From Escherichia coli (GTDB lineage: Bacteria; Pseudomonadota; Gammaproteobacteria; Enterobacterales; Enterobacteriaceae), in the NCBI RefSeq assembly GCF_003018255.1, contig NZ_CP027440.1: a stretch of DNA of 64,000 nt; one strand, 5' to 3'. Positions within the stretch are counted from its first letter, which is position 1, and every line of letters starts with the position of its first letter. The notes beneath the pieces are model-generated. The model made no database searches and had not been told where the DNA came from. It saw only the letters and a list, made by a program, of their open reading frames with translations. The translations under genes were made by a program, and so were the position numbers. Positions 10,550 through 44,326 of the stretch are shown one piece after another.

Positions 10550-10762
10550 ATGTCCGGTAAAATGACTGGTATCGTAAAATGGTTCAACGCTGACAAAGGC
10601 TTCGGCTTCATCACTCCTGACGATGGCTCTAAAGACGTGTTCGTACACTTCTCTGCTATCCAGAACGATGGTTACAAATCTCTGGACGAAGGTCAGAAAG
10701 TGTCCTTCACCATCGAAAGCGGCGCTAAAGGCCCGGCAGCTGGTAACGTAACCAGCCTGTAA
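10550..10762 (+). CDS. cspA: Major cold shock protein CspA
   Basis: 70 aa, [38 protein letters not shown]..., identical to CspA. Confidence 0.97.
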
Positions 10763-10819: not shown

Positions 10820-10949
10820 TTGTTTTTCAGGAAATAAATAATCGATCGCGTAATAGAATCTAGTGTTATTTTTGTGAAGAATAAATTTGGGTGCAATGAG
10901 AATGCGCAACGCCGTAAGAAAGGCGGGAATAACTTCCCGCCAAAGTCTC

Positions 10950-11102
10950 TTACTCTTTCAAATTGCAGGCTAAAAATGCCGCCAGCTCATAACTTCCCTG
11001 TTTAATATGCAATTCACACAGTGAATCTCTTACCATCCAGGTAAAAAATAAAAGCGTGAAACAAATCACTATTAAAGAAAGCAATCTATATTTCTGCGGC
11101 AT
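10950..11102 (-). CDS. hokA: Hok-family type I toxin HokA; the ORF continues in frame upstream to 11162 (mok-like position)
   Basis: C-terminal 50 aa of the 70-aa ORF, MPQKYRLLSLIVICFTLLFFTWMVRDSLCELHIKQGSYELAAFLACNLKE, is a Hok/Gef-family peptide with a single TM helix. Confidence 0.8.
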   Translation of the reverse strand: MPQKYRLLSLIVICFTLLFFTWMVRDSLCELHIKQGSYELAAFLACNLKE

Positions 11103-11119
11103 TCCCAGCCTCCTGTGTT

Positions 11120-11200
11120 GATTTCCAACGAGTAAGAGGCTAACCTTATGGTGTTCAGGCATAGGGTAGCCTCACTTTGATTTATAGTCAGGTGGGGCTT
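11120..11200 (+). ncRNA. sokA: Expected position of Sok-type antisense RNA (sokA), antisense to the hokA/mok leader
   Basis: Inferred only from hok/sok locus architecture; no promoter or terminator defined by eye; coordinates approximate. Confidence 0.25.
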
Positions 11201-11382
11201 TTCTCTGTCTGCCTTTCGGTGAATACCTGAGACAAACAGTCTCAAGCACCCACAGCTATTCTAGCTTAATAAGTTCGTTTCTTCTCCTTGATATAATCCT
11301 AAAAAAATCTCATAAAATTAATATATGAGACAATCTTTATTCAGCAGAAGATTATTAAAGGTTGCTCTATTATTTAGCGATA

Positions 11383-11410
11383 AAAAAGCCTGCCAGATGG
11401 CAGGCTTTTT
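11383..11410. terminator. Bidirectional terminator downstream of glyS
   Basis: AAAAAAGCCTGCCAGATGGCAGGCTTTTT: perfect hairpin with A-run and T-run on either side. Confidence 0.8.
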
Positions 11411-11423
11411 AATAACGGCGTTA

Positions 11424-13493
11424 TTACTGTAACAGCGAAATATCCGCAACGCGCAGGAATAATTCGCGCAGTTTCTCCAGCATGGTAAGACGGTTGATTC
11501 GCAATTCTTTGTCATCAACCATGACCATCACTTTATCGAAGAAGGCATCAACCGGTTCACGCAATTCAGCCAGTTCGACCAGCGCGTCCTGGTAACGACC
11601 TTCAGCGAAGTACGGCTCCAGCTTGTCGCGCAGCACCACAACTTGCATCGCCAGTTTAATTTCTTCCGGCTCTTTCAGAGTAGAAGCATTCACGCGATCG
11701 CTCAGCACTTCGTCAGACTTCGCCAGAATGTTAGATACACGCTTGTTTGCCGCCGCCAGTGACGCTGCCGCATCCAGAGTACGGAAGTGCGATACCGCCT
11801 TCATACGGGCATCGAAATCTGCCGGACGAGTCGGACGACGCGCCAGTACCGCCTGGATGGTATCAACGGTGTAACCTTCGTCCTGATACCAGGCGCGGAA
11901 GCGACCGAGCATAAAGTCGATAACATCATCAACTACGTTGGTATTAGTCAGCTTATCGCCATACAGACGCACCGCTTCTTCGGTCAGCGTTTGCAGATCA
12001 AGGTTGAGGTTCTTCTCAACGATAATACGCAGCACGCCAAGTGCGGCACGACGCAACGCAAACGGGTCTTTGTCGCCTTTCGGATGCTGGCCGATACCGA
12101 AGATACCCGCCAGAGTATCCATCTTGTCAGCAATCGCCAGCGCACAGGCTACCGGGTTAGACGGCAGGTCATCACCGGCAAAGCGCGGCTGATACTGCTC
12201 GTTCAGCGCCACGGCAACATCTTCCGCTTCGCCATCGTGACGCGCGTAGTGCATCCCCATAACGCCCTGGGTGTCGGTGAACTCGAAGACCATGTTGGTC
12301 ATCAGGTCGCACTTGGACAGCAGGCCCGCACGGGTAGCGTGGTTAACGTCAGCGCCAATCTGTTCAGCAATCCAGCCAGCCAGCGCCTGGATGCGGTCAG
12401 TCTTGTCACGCAGCGTACCCAGCTGTTGCTGGAACAGCACGGTTTGCAGGCGCGGCAGGTTATCTTCCAGACGTTTTTTACGGTCGGTGTTGAAGAAGAA
12501 CTCGGCATCCGCCAGACGTGGACGAACGACTTTCTCGTTACCAGAGATAATTTGCTGCGGATCTTTCGATTCGATGTTGGCAACGAAGATAAAGTTCGGC
12601 AGCAGTTTGCCGTCGTTCGCATACACCGGGAAGTATTTCTGGTCACCTTTCATGGTGTAAACCAGCGCTTCAGACGGCACCGCGAGGAATTTCTCTTCGA
12701 ATTTTGCGGTCAGCACAACCGGCCATTCCACCAGCGAAGCGACTTCTTCCAACAGGCTTTCGCTTAAGTCAGCGTTACCGCCAATCTTACGCGCCGCTTC
12801 TTCGGCATCGGCTTTAATCTTCGCCTTACGTTCTTCGTAATCGGCGATGACTTTCCCGCGCTCACGCAGAATTTCCGGATACTGATCAGCATTGTCGATA
12901 GTGAATTCCGGCTCGCCCATAAAGCGGTGGCCGCGAATCACGCGATCGGACTGAATGCCCAGAATGGTAGCCGGAATAACTTTGTCGCCCAGCAGCAGGG
13001 TCACGGTGTGCACCGGACGCACGAAGTGCACGTCGCTTGCACCCCAACGCATCAGTTTCGGGATCGGCAGTTTCGCCAGCGAAGTCGCAACCATATTCGG
13101 CAGCAGTGCTTCAGTGCTTTCGCCCTTCACGTGGGCGCGATACAGCAGCCATTCGCCTTTATCGGTAGTCAGACGCTCAGCCTGGTCAACGGTAATACCG
13201 CAACCACGCGCCCAGCCTTCTGCCGCTTTGCTCGGTTTGCCTTCAGCGTCGAACGCCTGGGCAATCGCCGGGCCGCGTTTTTCGATTTCACGATCCGGTT
13301 GCGCTTCCGCCAGGTTAGCTACTTTAAGCGCCAGACGACGCGGAGCAGCAAACCATTGAACGGTGCCGTGTGCGAGGCCAGCGTTATCCAGCTCCGCAGT
13401 AAAGTTCGCAGCAAAGGACTCAGCCAGGCTGCGCAGTGCTTTTGGTGGCAGCTCTTCAGTGCCGATTTCCACCAGAAAAGTTTTCTCAGACAT
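11424..13493 (-). CDS. glyS: Glycine--tRNA ligase beta subunit
   Basis: 689-aa [23 protein letters not shown]...; matches GlyS. Confidence 0.97.
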
Positions 13494-16851: not shown

Positions 16852-17019
16852 AACGATCTCCATATCTACCAGCGATACATTACGAGTAACCAACGAAAGA
16901 CAAAACTGAAAAATGCCATTAACAAATGATTTTCAGAATAAATTCATACTAAATATTAATTAATTACTGAGATATATAGATGTGAATTATCCCCCACCCG
17001 GTCAGGCAGAGGATAACGT

Positions 17020-29975: not shown

Positions 29976-30075
29976 GCCTGATGCGCTACGCTTATCAGGC
30001 CTACATGATTTCTGCAATATATTGAATTTGGTAGAATTTGTAGGCCGGATAAGGCGTTTTAGCCGCATCCGGCAT
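29976..30075. repeat. REP/BIME palindromic units between avtA and ysaA
   Basis: GCCTGATGCGCTACGCTTATCAGGCCTAC and GTAGGCCGGATAAGGCG...CGCATCCGGCA match REP consensus. Confidence 0.8.
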
Positions 30076-42277: not shown

Positions 42278-44257
42278 ATGAACATTTCGGAAGTCGATCT
42301 GCATAAACTGACGGTCAGCGATCCGTTCCTCGGTCAGTACCAACAACTGGTCCGCGATGTGGTGATTCCTTATCAGTGGGACGCCTTGAACGATCGTATC
42401 CCAGAAGCGGAACCCAGCCATGCGATTGAAAACTTTCGCATTGCCGCAGGACTGCAAGACGGTGAATTTTACGGGATGGTGTTTCAGGACAGCGACGTCG
42501 CCAAATGGCTGGAAGCGGTAGCCTGGTCGCTGTGCCAGAAGCCGGATGCCGAACTGGAAAAAACCGCTGACGAGGTGATTGAACTGATCGCCTCCGCCCA
42601 GTGCGAAGATGGCTATCTCAATGCTTACTTTACGGTAAAAGCGCCCGAAGAACGCTGGAGCAATCTGGCGGAGTGTCATGAACTTTACTGCGCCGGTCAT
42701 CTGATTGAAGCCGGAGTCGCCTTCTTCCAGGCCACGGGAAAACGGCGCTTGCTGGAAGTGGTTTGCCGTCTGGCCGATCATATCGACAGCGTATTTGGTC
42801 CAGGTGAAAGTAAGTTACACGGTTATCCTGGTCACCCGGAAATTGAACTGGCACTAATGCGCCTGTATGAAGTGACCGAAGAGCCGCGCTACCTGGCGCT
42901 GACGAACTATTTTGTCGAACAGCGTGGTGCGCAACCGCACTATTACGACCAGGAATATGAAAAGCGCGGGCAGACCTCGCACTGGCACACCTACGGCCCG
43001 GCGTGGATGGTGAAAGATAAAGCCTACAGCCAAGCGCATTTGCCCATCGCACAGCAACAAACCGCCATCGGACATACAGTACGCTTTGTATATCTGATGA
43101 CTGGCGTCGCACATCTCGCGCGTTTAAGTCACGATGAAAGCAAGCGTCAGGATTGCCTGCGGCTGTGGAACAATATGGCCCAGCGTCAGTTATATATTAC
43201 CGGCGGCATTGGCTCACAAAGCAGCGGCGAAGCGTTCAGCAGCGATTACGATCTGCCGAATGACACGGTTTACGCCGAAAGTTGTGCTTCCATCGGCCTG
43301 ATGATGTTCGCCCGGCGAATGCTGGAAATGGAAGGCGACAGTCAATATGCCGATGTGATGGAGCGCGCACTGTACAACACTGTGCTCGGCGGCATGGCGC
43401 TGGATGGCAAACATTTCTTCTACGTTAATCCGCTGGAAGTGCATCCAAAAACGTTAAAATTCAACCATATCTACGATCACGTTAAGCCGATCCGCCAGCG
43501 TTGGTTTGGTTGCGCTTGTTGTCCGCCAAATATCGCCCGCGTGCTAACCTCGATTGGTCATTATCTCTACACGCCGCGTGAAGATGCGTTGTATATCAAC
43601 ATCTACGCAGGAAACAGCATGGAAGTGCCGGTAGAAAATGGCACGCTGCGTCTGCGGGTTAGCGGAAACTATCCGTGGCAGGAACAGGTGACAATTGCGG
43701 TTGAATCGCCCCAGCCGGTGCGTCATACGCTGGCTTTACGTCTGCCGGACTGGTGCACACAGCCGCAGATCATATTGAATGGGGAAGAGGTCGAGCAGGA
43801 TATTCGTAAAGGGTATTTGCACATTACCCGCGAATGGCAGGAGGGCGACACGCTGAATCTGACTTTGCCAATGCCGGTACGTCGCGTTTACGGTAACCCT
43901 CTGGTGCGTCACGTCGCCGGAAAAGTGGCGATTCAGCGCGGCCCGCTGGTGTATTGCCTGGAACAGGCCGACAACGGCGAGTCACTGCATAATCTGTGGC
44001 TGCCCGCCGATGCGCCATTTACGACATTTGAAGGTAAGGGATTGTTCCGCCATAAGATCTTAATCCAGGCACCGGGTTATCGGTATGAACAGAGCAATCC
44101 AGAGCAGCAACCGCTGTGGCATTACGACAGCGCGCCAGCCAAACGCCAGCCGCAAACCCTGACCTTTATCCCGTGGTTTAGCTGGGCCAACCGGGGTGAA
44201 GGCGAAATGCGGATCTGGGTGAATGAGGAAAAGCATTGCCATCCGGAGGTTGGATAA
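42278..44257 (+). CDS. Glycoside hydrolase family 127-like protein (DUF1680; putative beta-L-arabinofuranosidase)
   Basis: ORF frame from 42230; likely start MNISEVDLHK at 42278 after RBS AAGGA; contains WFGCACCPPN cysteine motif typical of HypBA1-like GH127. Confidence 0.75.
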   Translation: MNISEVDLHKLTVSDPFLGQYQQLVRDVVIPYQWDALNDRIPEAEPSHAIENFRIAAGLQDGEFYGMVFQDSDVAKWLEAVAWSLCQKPDAELEKTADEVIELIASAQCEDGYLNAYFTVKAPEERWSNLAECHELYCAGHLIEAGVAFFQATGKRRLLEVVCRLADHIDSVFGPGESKLHGYPGHPEIELALMRLYEVTEEPRYLALTNYFVEQRGAQPHYYDQEYEKRGQTSHWHTYGPAWMVKDKAYSQAHLPIAQQQTAIGHTVRFVYLMTGVAHLARLSHDESKRQDCLRLWNNMAQRQLYITGGIGSQSSGEAFSSDYDLPNDTVYAESCASIGLMMFARRMLEMEGDSQYADVMERALYNTVLGGMALDGKHFFYVNPLEVHPKTLKFNHIYDHVKPIRQRWFGCACCPPNIARVLTSIGHYLYTPREDALYINIYAGNSMEVPVENGTLRLRVSGNYPWQEQVTIAVESPQPVRHTLALRLPDWCTQPQIILNGEEVEQDIRKGYLHITREWQEGDTLNLTLPMPVRRVYGNPLVRHVAGKVAIQRGPLVYCLEQADNGESLHNLWLPADAPFTTFEGKGLFRHKILIQAPGYRYEQSNPEQQPLWHYDSAPAKRQPQTLTFIPWFSWANRGEGEMRIWVNEEKHCHPEVG

Positions 44258-44326
44258 GGCGCTCGCGCCGCATCCAACGTAGGGAGCACATTGCCTGATG
44301 CGACGCTTAACGTGTCTTATCAGGCC
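44243..44326. repeat. REP-like palindromic units at the right edge of the accessory cassette
   Basis: GGATAAGGCG...CGCATCC and GCCTGATGCGACGCTTAACGTGTCTTATCAGGCC. Confidence 0.65.

What the first reader, a model, noticed from the sequence alone, without database searches (positions are those of the whole stretch)
10950..11423. hokA locus is not interrupted by an insertion sequence
In K-12 MG1655 (from memory) an IS150 lies beside hokA and disrupts the hok/sok-type locus. Here the hokA-glyS gap is about 320 bp with no transposase ORF, and the toxin ORF plus its upstream in-frame extension are intact, so this type I toxin-antitoxin locus may be functional.
Basis: partly seen in the sequence, partly recalled or inferred. 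Interest (0 to 1): 0.35.

Follow-up and report, generated by a model that had tools for sequence, protein, structure and literature searches.

The report
Ordinary uninterrupted hokA/sokA toxin-antitoxin locus
This stretch is the normal, insertion-free form of the E. coli chromosomal hokA/sokA toxin-antitoxin locus; about half of sequenced E. coli carry it uninterrupted and it was already described in 1999, so it is real but ordinary.

Summary
Between cspA (10550-10762, +) and glyS (11424-13493, -) lies a complete hokA locus with no insertion sequence; the hokA start codon is 321 bp from the glyS stop. K-12 MG1655 has a 1443-bp IS150 after the equivalent of window 11134 and also lacks 38 bp that hold the Sok -10 box, the Sok 5' end and the mokA start. 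Every element known from R1 hok/sok is present here. These are the 50-aa HokA with both cysteines, the in-frame 70-codon mokA, the hok -10 box, tac, ucb, mok SD, dcb, a Sok promoter and terminator hairpin, the 3' protective stem-loop and fbi. Folding predicts tac/fbi end-pairing in the long RNA and a tac/ucb stem once the 3' end is removed.

None of this is new. 2830 of 5426 complete E. coli genomes are uninterrupted. The 90-nt core is identical in about a third of them. The first 140 nt of the mRNA (the leader up to the hok SD) are identical to E. coli C, the allele studied by Pedersen and Gerdes (1999). That allele reportedly gave no post-segregational killing and no rifampicin activation. 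"May be functional" therefore holds only at the sequence and RNA-design level.

Side observation: IS150-family elements have inserted repeatedly at one site inside Sok, which is empty here.

The parts
10950..11102 (-). hokA toxin ORF, 50 aa: MPQKYRLLSLIVICFTLLFFTWMVRDSLCELHIKQGSYELAAFLACNLKE
   Evidence: ORF list. Pfam HOK_GEF 81.9 bits and NCBIfam HokA equivalog 131.5 bits. RefSeq annotates the identical DNA as hokA, WP_001135743.1. 40% identical to R1 Hok.
10950..11162 (-). mokA: 70-codon ORF in frame with hokA, starting at the ATG at 11162-11160
   Evidence: ORF list. The K-12 mokA pseudogene shares the hokA stop and is cut by IS150. The start codon aligns with the R1 mok start.
11109..11114 (-). 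hok Shine-Dalgarno AGGAGG; E. coli C and most other alleles have AGGGGG
   Evidence: Sequence; alignments.
11100..11251 (-). hokA mRNA leader, from the inferred +1 (G at 11251) to the hok AUG
   Evidence: Rfam RF01794, 124 bits, full-length match to model positions 1-157.
11258..11263 (-). hokA promoter -10 box TAGAAT, 6 nt before the inferred +1; no good -35
   Evidence: It lies at the same distance from the inferred +1 as the R1 -10 box TATGAT does (sequence; -10 boxes read by eye from alignment A1). TATGAT was validated by loss-of-function mutations (PMC9841398). The generic scan did not call it.
11241..11251 (-). tac element, 5' GGGUGCUUGAG
   Evidence: Conserved in hokA, hokB, hokC and R1. 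It pairs with fbi in the long RNA and with ucb in the truncated RNA.
11194..11200 (-). ucb / anti-SD, AAGCCCC (mRNA nt 52-58)
   Evidence: GCCC (nt 53-56) pairs with GGCU at nt 81-84, occluding the last two bases (GG) of the mok SD, in the 368-nt fold. It pairs with tac in the 334-nt fold and in the Rfam consensus structure.
11170..11173 (-). mok Shine-Dalgarno GAGG
   Evidence: Aligned with the R1 mok SD GAGG (PMC9841398).
11136..11141 (-). dcb, AGCCUC, part of the invariant box AGCCUCUUAC
   Evidence: Invariant in four hok paralogues. It pairs with GAGGC in the Rfam consensus.
11118..11146 (+). Sok promoter: -35 TTGATT (11118-11123), 17-bp spacer, -10 TAACCT (11141-11146)
   Evidence: Column-for-column alignment with R1 (TTGCGC-17-TATCCT) and sokB (TTGCCG-17-TAAGAT). 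Invariant in 8 E. coli alleles. Below the threshold of the generic scan.
11153..11208 (+). Predicted SokA antisense RNA, about 56 nt, covering the mok SD and AUG. It ends in a hairpin followed by UUUUCUCU.
   Evidence: 5' end inferred by homology to the annotated sokC and sokB 5' ends. 3' end equals the end of the K-12 sokA fragment. Hairpin fold -27.6 kcal/mol, z -4.7. Expression was not tested.
10922..10941 (-). 3' stem-loop GGCGGGAAGUUAUUCCCGCC, the expected stop point of 3' processing
   Evidence: Terminator-like scan hit. Stable in all folds. Homologous hairpin present in R1 and hokB. In R1 this stem-loop protects the truncated mRNA (PMC9841398).
10889..10900 (-). fbi element, CUCAUUGCACCC, complementary to tac
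   Evidence: Pairs with nt 1-6 and 8-11 in the minimum-energy and centroid folds of the 368-nt RNA. Aligned with the hokB and R1 fbi, with compensating changes (GGGUGC/GCACCC versus GGCGC/GCGCC).
11175..11177 (.). Unoccupied IS150 hot-spot target (CTT) inside Sok
   Evidence: About 1000 E. coli genomes carry IS150 here with a CTT duplication. The homologous site is occupied in an IncI2 plasmid hok locus and was hit in hokC during experimental evolution (PMC5419217).
11135..11173 (.). Segment that K-12 lacks. The K-12 IS150 follows the equivalent of 11134, and 38 bp are deleted, removing the Sok -10, the Sok 5' end, the mok AUG and the mok SD.
   Evidence: Alignment and junction sequences.

Best explanation
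This is the ancestral, uninterrupted allele of the chromosomal hokA-mokA/sokA type I toxin-antitoxin locus of E. coli, a member of the hok/sok family, in its commonest canonical form.

Shown from sequence and computation: all coding and RNA elements are present and are arranged as in R1 hok/sok.

Inferred by homology to R1:
1. A weak promoter (-10 TAGAAT) makes a stable hokA mRNA from 11251 leftwards.
2. In the full-length RNA the 5' tac pairs with the 3' fbi, and the mok SD is partly occluded by pairing with the ucb, so nothing is translated.
3. Slow 3' trimming back to the hairpin at 10922-10941 removes fbi.
4. The 5' end then refolds into the tac/ucb stem and exposes the mok translation start.
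5. A short, abundant antisense RNA, SokA (about 11153-11208, + strand), pairs over the mok SD and AUG and causes duplex cleavage. This blocks mokA translation and the coupled hokA translation.
6. If SokA were lost, the 50-aa membrane toxin HokA would be made.

By precedent from the E. coli C allele, which matches the window over the first 140 nt of the mRNA, the locus probably makes both RNAs but does not kill when transcription stops. It is best seen as an intact but physiologically quiet locus, not a proven active killer.
For: No IS is present and the window is collinear with K-12 minus IS150. Pfam, NCBIfam and Rfam matches are far above their cut-offs. The tac, -10, AGCCCC, AGCCUCUUAC, 3' hairpin and fbi boxes are conserved against R1, hokB and hokC. 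The Sok promoter aligns with those of R1 and sokB. The 368-nt RNA folds with tac/fbi end-pairing (-137.9 kcal/mol, z -7.7). The 334-nt RNA folds with the tac/ucb stem. SokA has a hairpin followed by a U-run. mRNA nt 1-140 (window 11112-11251) are identical to E. coli C. The RF01794 score equals that of the best alleles: 124.0 against 124.9 for E. coli C and 70.1 for K-12. 2830 of 5426 genomes are uninterrupted, and the 90-nt core is identical in about 19 of 60 evenly spaced rows. The HokA coding sequence is toxic when overexpressed and has both cysteines without needing RNA editing (bioRxiv 10.1101/2025.08.07.668861). sokA of E. coli C is described as regulating hokA 'in the usual manner' (PMC3562002).
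Against: No expression data exist for this strain. The generic sigma-70 scan called neither the hok nor the Sok promoter, so both rest on homology. No clear intrinsic terminator follows fbi; the next strong hairpin is the reverse side of the cspA terminator about 90 nt further on, so the full-length 3' end is unknown. The tac/fbi helix has a 1x2 internal loop. The E. coli C allele is reported to give no post-segregational killing and no rifampicin activation (bioRxiv 10.1101/2025.08.07.668861). Polymorphism in the ORF runs at 6 synonymous to 5 non-synonymous changes in 14 alleles, which is only weak evidence of constraint.
Confidence: 0.85

Rival explanations
1. The locus is a live, triggerable killer or defence module. 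When SokA synthesis stops, for example through phage-induced transcription shut-off or stress, the stored truncated hokA mRNA is translated and kills or arrests the cell. That would make this lineage functionally different from K-12.
For: All R1-type elements are intact. The hok SD is the consensus AGGAGG here, against AGGGGG in E. coli C. The HokA coding sequence is toxic on overexpression, and a single chromosomal copy of R1 hok is lethal without Sok (bioRxiv 10.1101/2025.08.07.668861; PMC9841398).
Against: The E. coli C allele shares mRNA nt 1-140 with the window, yet did not mediate post-segregational killing and was not activated by rifampicin (bioRxiv 10.1101/2025.08.07.668861, citing Pedersen and Gerdes 1999). 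About half of E. coli have lost the locus to IS150 without obvious consequence.
Confidence: 0.15
2. The locus is a silent relic. It is intact by sequence only because too little time has passed, it is not expressed at a meaningful level, and it is drifting toward the decayed forms seen in other lineages.
For: Other 'uninterrupted' alleles are visibly decayed. KE21 has -10 TAGAAT changed to TGGAAT, a 1-nt deletion before the hok AUG and an fbi mismatch. BS-04 has lost the mok SD. O145 has a 4-nt insertion in the leader. No good -35 exists for the hok promoter. The synonymous to non-synonymous ratio is weak.
Against: The 90-nt core is identical in roughly 1700 genomes of many lineages. The first 140 nt of the mRNA are identical between this lineage and E. 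coli C although the flanks differ at 19 sites. The E. coli C locus is reported to make mRNA and SokA (PMC3562002).
Confidence: 0.15
3. The ORF and its surroundings are a chance resemblance and not a hok/sok locus.
For: None found.
Against: The protein and RNA family scores are far above their thresholds. The locus is annotated as hokA in 5425 genomes at the same cspA-glyS position.
Confidence: 0.01

Closest known systems
hokA/sokA of E. coli C (Pedersen and Gerdes 1999, Mol Microbiol 32:1090; as described in bioRxiv 10.1101/2025.08.07.668861 and PMC3562002)
   Same: Same cspA-glyS position and no IS. mRNA nt 1-140 (window 11112-11251) are identical; they include tac, ucb, mok SD and AUG, dcb, the Sok promoter and the Sok RNA. 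The 3' hairpin and fbi are also the same.
   Different: There are 19 differences in 661 nt. Three lie just upstream of +1. One makes the hok SD AGGAGG here against AGGGGG. HokA has V24 here against I24. Four are synonymous changes and four lie in the 3' UTR, and the rest lie toward glyS.
hokA locus of E. coli K-12 MG1655 (b4455, with mokA b4647 and sokA b4614 as pseudogenes)
   Same: Same locus and flanks. HokA is 47 of 50 residues identical.
   Different: K-12 has IS150 after the equivalent of 11134 plus a 38-bp deletion that removes the Sok -10, the Sok 5' end, the mok AUG and the mok SD. K-12 HokA has I24, E36 and K47, whereas G36 is the family-conserved residue kept here.
hok/sok (parB) of plasmid R1
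   Same: Same element order and spacing: -10, tac, ucb, mok SD, Sok target, dcb with Sok promoter, hok ORF, 3' hairpin, fbi. The same predicted alternative folds appear (PMC9841398).
   Different: The locus here is chromosomal. The toxins are only 40% identical. mokA is in frame with hokA, whereas R1 mok is out of frame (R1 frame read by eye from the sequence, plus background knowledge). No terminator hairpin follows fbi directly. No post-segregational killing is reported for the near-identical chromosomal allele.

Membership tests
[quoted passage not shown] | Small hydrophobic Hok/Gef toxin ORF | tested here: met
   Pfam PF01848 81.9 bits (cut-off 22). NCBIfam NF007290 HokA equivalog 131.5 bits (cut-off 89).
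[quoted passage not shown] | Overlapping mok reading frame with its own SD upstream of hok | tested here: met
   A 70-codon ORF runs from the ATG at 11162, with GAGG at 11170-11173, both aligned with R1 mok. Translational coupling itself cannot be tested here.
[quoted passage not shown] | cis-antisense Sok gene, with promoter and terminator, overlapping the mok translation start | tested here: met
   TTGATT-17-TAACCT aligns with the R1 and sokB promoters. A hairpin plus UUUUCUCU follows. This is met at sequence level only: the generic scan did not reach its threshold and transcription was not tested.
[quoted passage not shown] | Conserved leader sequence and structure (Rfam RF01794) | tested here: met
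   124 bits against a gathering score of 59, full-length match.
[quoted passage not shown] | Long-range tac/fbi pairing that closes the full-length mRNA | tested here: met
   In the minimum-energy and centroid folds of the 368-nt RNA, nt 1-6 and 8-11 pair with CUCAUUGCACCC; z -7.7. Compensating differences from R1 are seen. This is a prediction only.
[quoted passage not shown] | Refolding to a tac/ucb stem after 3' truncation, with a protective 3' stem-loop | tested here: met
   The 334-nt fold shows GGG.GCUU paired with AAGCCCC. The hairpin at 10922-10941 is retained.
[quoted passage not shown] | Killing when Sok decays (post-segregational killing or rifampicin activation) | not testable with these tools
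   The literature reports a negative result for the E. coli C allele (bioRxiv 10.1101/2025.08.07.668861). That allele is identical to the window over mRNA nt 1-140.

The most novel reading that the evidence does not exclude
This particular allele combines the canonical leader with a consensus AGGAGG hok SD. It could be a live toxin locus whose killing can be triggered, for example as abortive infection on phage-induced transcription shut-off. If so, the repeated IS150 insertions at one site inside Sok in other lineages would reflect selection to silence an active, costly module, not mere target preference of the IS.
Probability: 0.12. Interest if true: 0.35.

Novelty: already known. Interest (0 to 1): 0.1.

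Why it matters
It matters little as a discovery. IS-free hokA loci were described in 1999, RefSeq annotates them routinely, and they are the majority state in E. coli. The practical points are two. First, K-12 is the atypical strain at this locus. Second, 'no IS' does not by itself mean 'intact', because several uninterrupted alleles in other lineages carry promoter, SD or fbi lesions. The window's allele is a good canonical template for anyone wishing to test what chromosomal hok loci do, which remains unsettled.

Tried and rejected
The generic promoter scan found neither the hok nor the Sok promoter. I therefore relied on homology to R1, sokB and sokC and on the R1 -10 box validated in PMC9841398.

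The Pedersen and Gerdes 1999 paper is not held, so its content is cited second-hand.

I first took ATCC 8739 ('EcolC') to be E. coli C. It is a different strain, with a K-12-type junction, a 41-bp IS150 remnant and another IS3-family element. The true E. coli C record was then located by walking along the chromosome.

The weak Rfam matches at 11350-11416 (STnc370 and several leader families, all below gathering) are the bidirectional glyS terminator hairpin and were dismissed.

The 35-aa and 66-aa ORFs in the hokA-glyS gap have no support.

The synonymous versus non-synonymous count on 14 alleles is too small to settle whether the ORF is under selection.

I did not run the large protein or genome-collection searches, because the question was already answered by the E. 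coli genome set.

Full report
**What is there**

The window is E. coli. The 661 bp between cspA and glyS are 100% identical to strain 104, APEC O2-211, APEC O78:H4 isolates and others, and match 5425 of 5426 complete E. coli genomes.

The layout is as follows.
- cspA lies at 10550-10762 (+), with its thermoregulator RNA (Rfam 497.8 bits).
- hokA lies at 10950-11102 (-).
- An in-frame 70-codon mokA starts at 11162.
- The hok leader lies at 11100-11251 (-) (Rfam RF01794, 124 bits against a gathering score of 59, full-length).
- glyS lies at 11424-13493 (-).

The hokA ATG is 321 bp from the glyS stop, and the gap holds no transposase-like ORF. HokA matches Pfam HOK_GEF (81.9 bits) and the NCBIfam HokA equivalog (131.5 bits).

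**Comparison with K-12**

The MG1655 record shows IS150 (1443 bp, insJ/insK) 32 bp upstream of the hokA ATG, with mokA and sokA annotated as pseudogenes.

With the IS removed, K-12 aligns with the window except for a 38-bp gap (window about 11136-11173) beside the IS. The K-12 junctions show no target duplication. Those 38 bp hold the Sok -10 box, the first 20 nt or so of Sok, the mok AUG and the mok SD.

K-12 HokA differs at I24, E36 and K47. The window has V24, G36 and N47. G36 aligns with the glycine of R1 Hok, and position 24 is variable in the family. Pfam scores are 81.9 (window), 83.2 (E. coli C type), 76.2 (K-12) and 76.5 (R1). Both cysteines, C29 and C46, are encoded. I see no inactivating substitution.

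**Regulatory anatomy**

An alignment with an R1-type hok/sok locus and with K-12 hokB and hokC shows these conserved elements:
- the -10 box (TAGAAT, 11263-11258), placed 6 nt before the inferred +1, as R1's TATGAT is. TATGAT was validated by loss-of-function mutations (PMC9841398);
- the 5' tac GGGUGCUUGAG;
- the AAGCCCC box (ucb);
- the invariant AGCCUCUUAC box (dcb);
- the post-stop hairpin GGCGGGAAGUUAUUCCCGCC (also found by the terminator scan);
- the fbi CUCAUUGCACCC (10889-10900).

Tac and fbi co-vary between loci: GGGUGC/GCACCC here and in hokB, against GGCGC/GCGCC in R1.

On the + strand, TTGATT-17 bp-TAACCT (11118-11146) aligns column for column with the R1 Sok promoter (TTGCGC-17-TATCCT) and with sokB (TTGCCG-17-TAAGAT). 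The annotated 5' ends of sokB and sokC place the SokA start at about 11153. SokA would end in a hairpin followed by UUUUCUCU near 11208 (-27.6 kcal/mol, z -4.7). That is also where the K-12 sokA fragment ends. SokA therefore covers the mok SD and AUG.

**Folding**

The RNA from 11251 through fbi (368 nt) has a minimum free energy of -137.9 kcal/mol (z -7.7). Nt 1-6 and 8-11 pair with fbi, and the ucb pairs with GGCU at nt 81-84, occluding the last two bases of the mok SD. Cut back to the 3' hairpin (334 nt), the 5' end instead forms the tac/ucb stem of the Rfam consensus, and the mok start region is open in the centroid. This matches the R1 scheme summarised in PMC9841398. These are predictions, not measurements.

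No clear terminator follows fbi. The next strong hairpin is the back of the cspA terminator, so the full-length 3' end is unresolved.

**How common and how known**

- 2830 of 5426 complete genomes have the region in one uninterrupted piece.
- 1662 carry the K-12-type IS150 junction.
- About 1000 carry a second type: IS150 in the opposite orientation with a CTT duplication at 11175-11177.
- The 90-nt core (11126-11215) is identical to the window in 19 of 60 evenly spaced rows, or roughly 1700 genomes.

E. coli C is the strain whose IS-free hokA was studied by Pedersen and Gerdes. It has the same arrangement, and mRNA nt 1-140 (window 11112-11251) are identical to the window. The two differ at 19 of 661 positions, and the first difference inside the transcript is in the hok SD (AGGAGG here, AGGGGG there).

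The literature says the following.
- The K-12 hok loci are inactivated by IS elements, point mutation or rearrangement, and other strains such as NRG857c have IS-free hokA (PMC7232551).
- hokA/sokA of E. coli C behaves 'in the usual manner' at the RNA level (PMC3562002).
- That locus could not mediate post-segregational killing and was not activated by rifampicin, although the HokA coding sequence is toxic when overexpressed (bioRxiv 10.1101/2025.08.07.668861).

**Verdict**

The finding is already known and ordinary.

**A caveat**

'Uninterrupted' does not equal 'intact'. Among eight IS-free alleles:
- KE21 has a -10 A-to-G change, the same position that abolishes R1 hok function. It also has a 1-nt deletion before the hok AUG and an fbi mismatch.
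- BS-04 has lost the mok SD.
- O145 RM13516 has a 4-nt insertion reading TGTACTG, the terminal bases of IS150.
- O157- and CFT073-type alleles carry six substitutions clustered at the mok start.

RF01794 scores fall accordingly: 124-127 for canonical alleles (KE21 scores 127.2, because its lesions are barely penalised by or lie outside the leader model), 119.6 for O157, 99.4 for O145, 86.7 for BS-04 and 70.1 for K-12. The window's allele is among the best-preserved.

**Side finding**

IS150-family elements sit at the same site in several hok loci:
- hokA class 2: CCTC-A-[CTT];
- an IncI2 plasmid hok: CCTC-GTG-[GGT], with a 100% identical IS150 in the same relative orientation;
- hokC in REL606-derived evolution lines, at position 16,972: CCTC-G-[GGT].

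The K-12-type right junction lies 2 nt away in the opposite orientation (PMC5419217). hok/sok loci have already been reported as insertion hot spots for mobile elements (bioRxiv 10.1101/527788). An insertion here cuts both the hok leader and Sok at once, which is a plausible reason why such insertions are tolerated; this last point is my inference.

Noticed in passing
window 11175-11177 (empty site); L003 3916-5358; L011 2550-3992; L019 about 373: IS150 occupies the same homologous site about 22-25 nt into Sok in roughly 1000 E. coli hokA loci (CTT duplication). It occupies a site 2 nt further on in an IncI2 plasmid hok locus (GGT duplication), and the matching site was hit in hokC of REL606-derived evolution lines. 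The K-12-type insertion (1662 genomes) lies 2 nt away in the opposite orientation, with a 38-bp adjacent deletion and no duplication. hok/sok insertion hot spots are already reported (bioRxiv 10.1101/527788; PMC5419217).
   Followed up: partly
window 11155-11172 and alignment A2 (L012-L018): Some IS-free hokA alleles of other lineages are degraded. O157/CFT073-type alleles have six clustered substitutions at the mok SD and AUG. O145 RM13516 has an extra TGTACTG-like insert, which equals the IS150 terminus and may be a footprint. BS-04 has deletions that remove the mok SD. KE21 has a -10 A-to-G change, a 1-nt deletion before the hok AUG and an fbi mismatch.
   Followed up: partly
L009 22500-24055 (E. 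coli ATCC 8739): ATCC 8739 has the K-12-type left junction, but only 41 bp of IS150 remain, followed by a different IS3-family element. This is a nested or replacement event at the same spot.
   Followed up: partly
L010 2440-4060 (K. quasipneumoniae plasmid NZ_AP022015.1): ISKpn8, 94.7% identical to IS150, is flanked on one side by a hokA-like Sok-promoter segment and on the other by an R1-like Sok hairpin, with no matching duplication. This suggests recombination between IS copies sitting in two different hok loci.
   Followed up: no
window 10902-10973 (+): This is the equivalent of the K-12 small protein YsaE (b4793), antisense to the hokA 3' end. It is intact here, but 5 of its 23 residues differ from K-12. 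hokB has an analogous antisense small ORF, yncP, in K-12.
   Followed up: no
window 10821-10876; L004 1059-1506 (E. coli strain 7/2): In strain 7/2 about 448 bp carrying an ORF annotated 'yidD' replace 56 bp between the cspA terminator and the hokA fbi.
   Followed up: no
window 11350-11416 and 11377-11464: The glyS terminator hairpin (AAAAAAGCCTGCCAGATGGCAGGCTTTTT) reads as a terminator on both strands and gives sub-threshold Rfam STnc370 matches (46.3 and 32.3 bits against a gathering score of 54). Read-through from glyQS into the hokA promoter region is conceivable.
   Followed up: no
window 44248-44326 (+) and 29997-30039 (-): Rfam gathering-level matches to naRNA4 (CssrE; 67.8 bits) and ES036 (CssrF; 38.9 bits) occur elsewhere in the window.
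   Followed up: no
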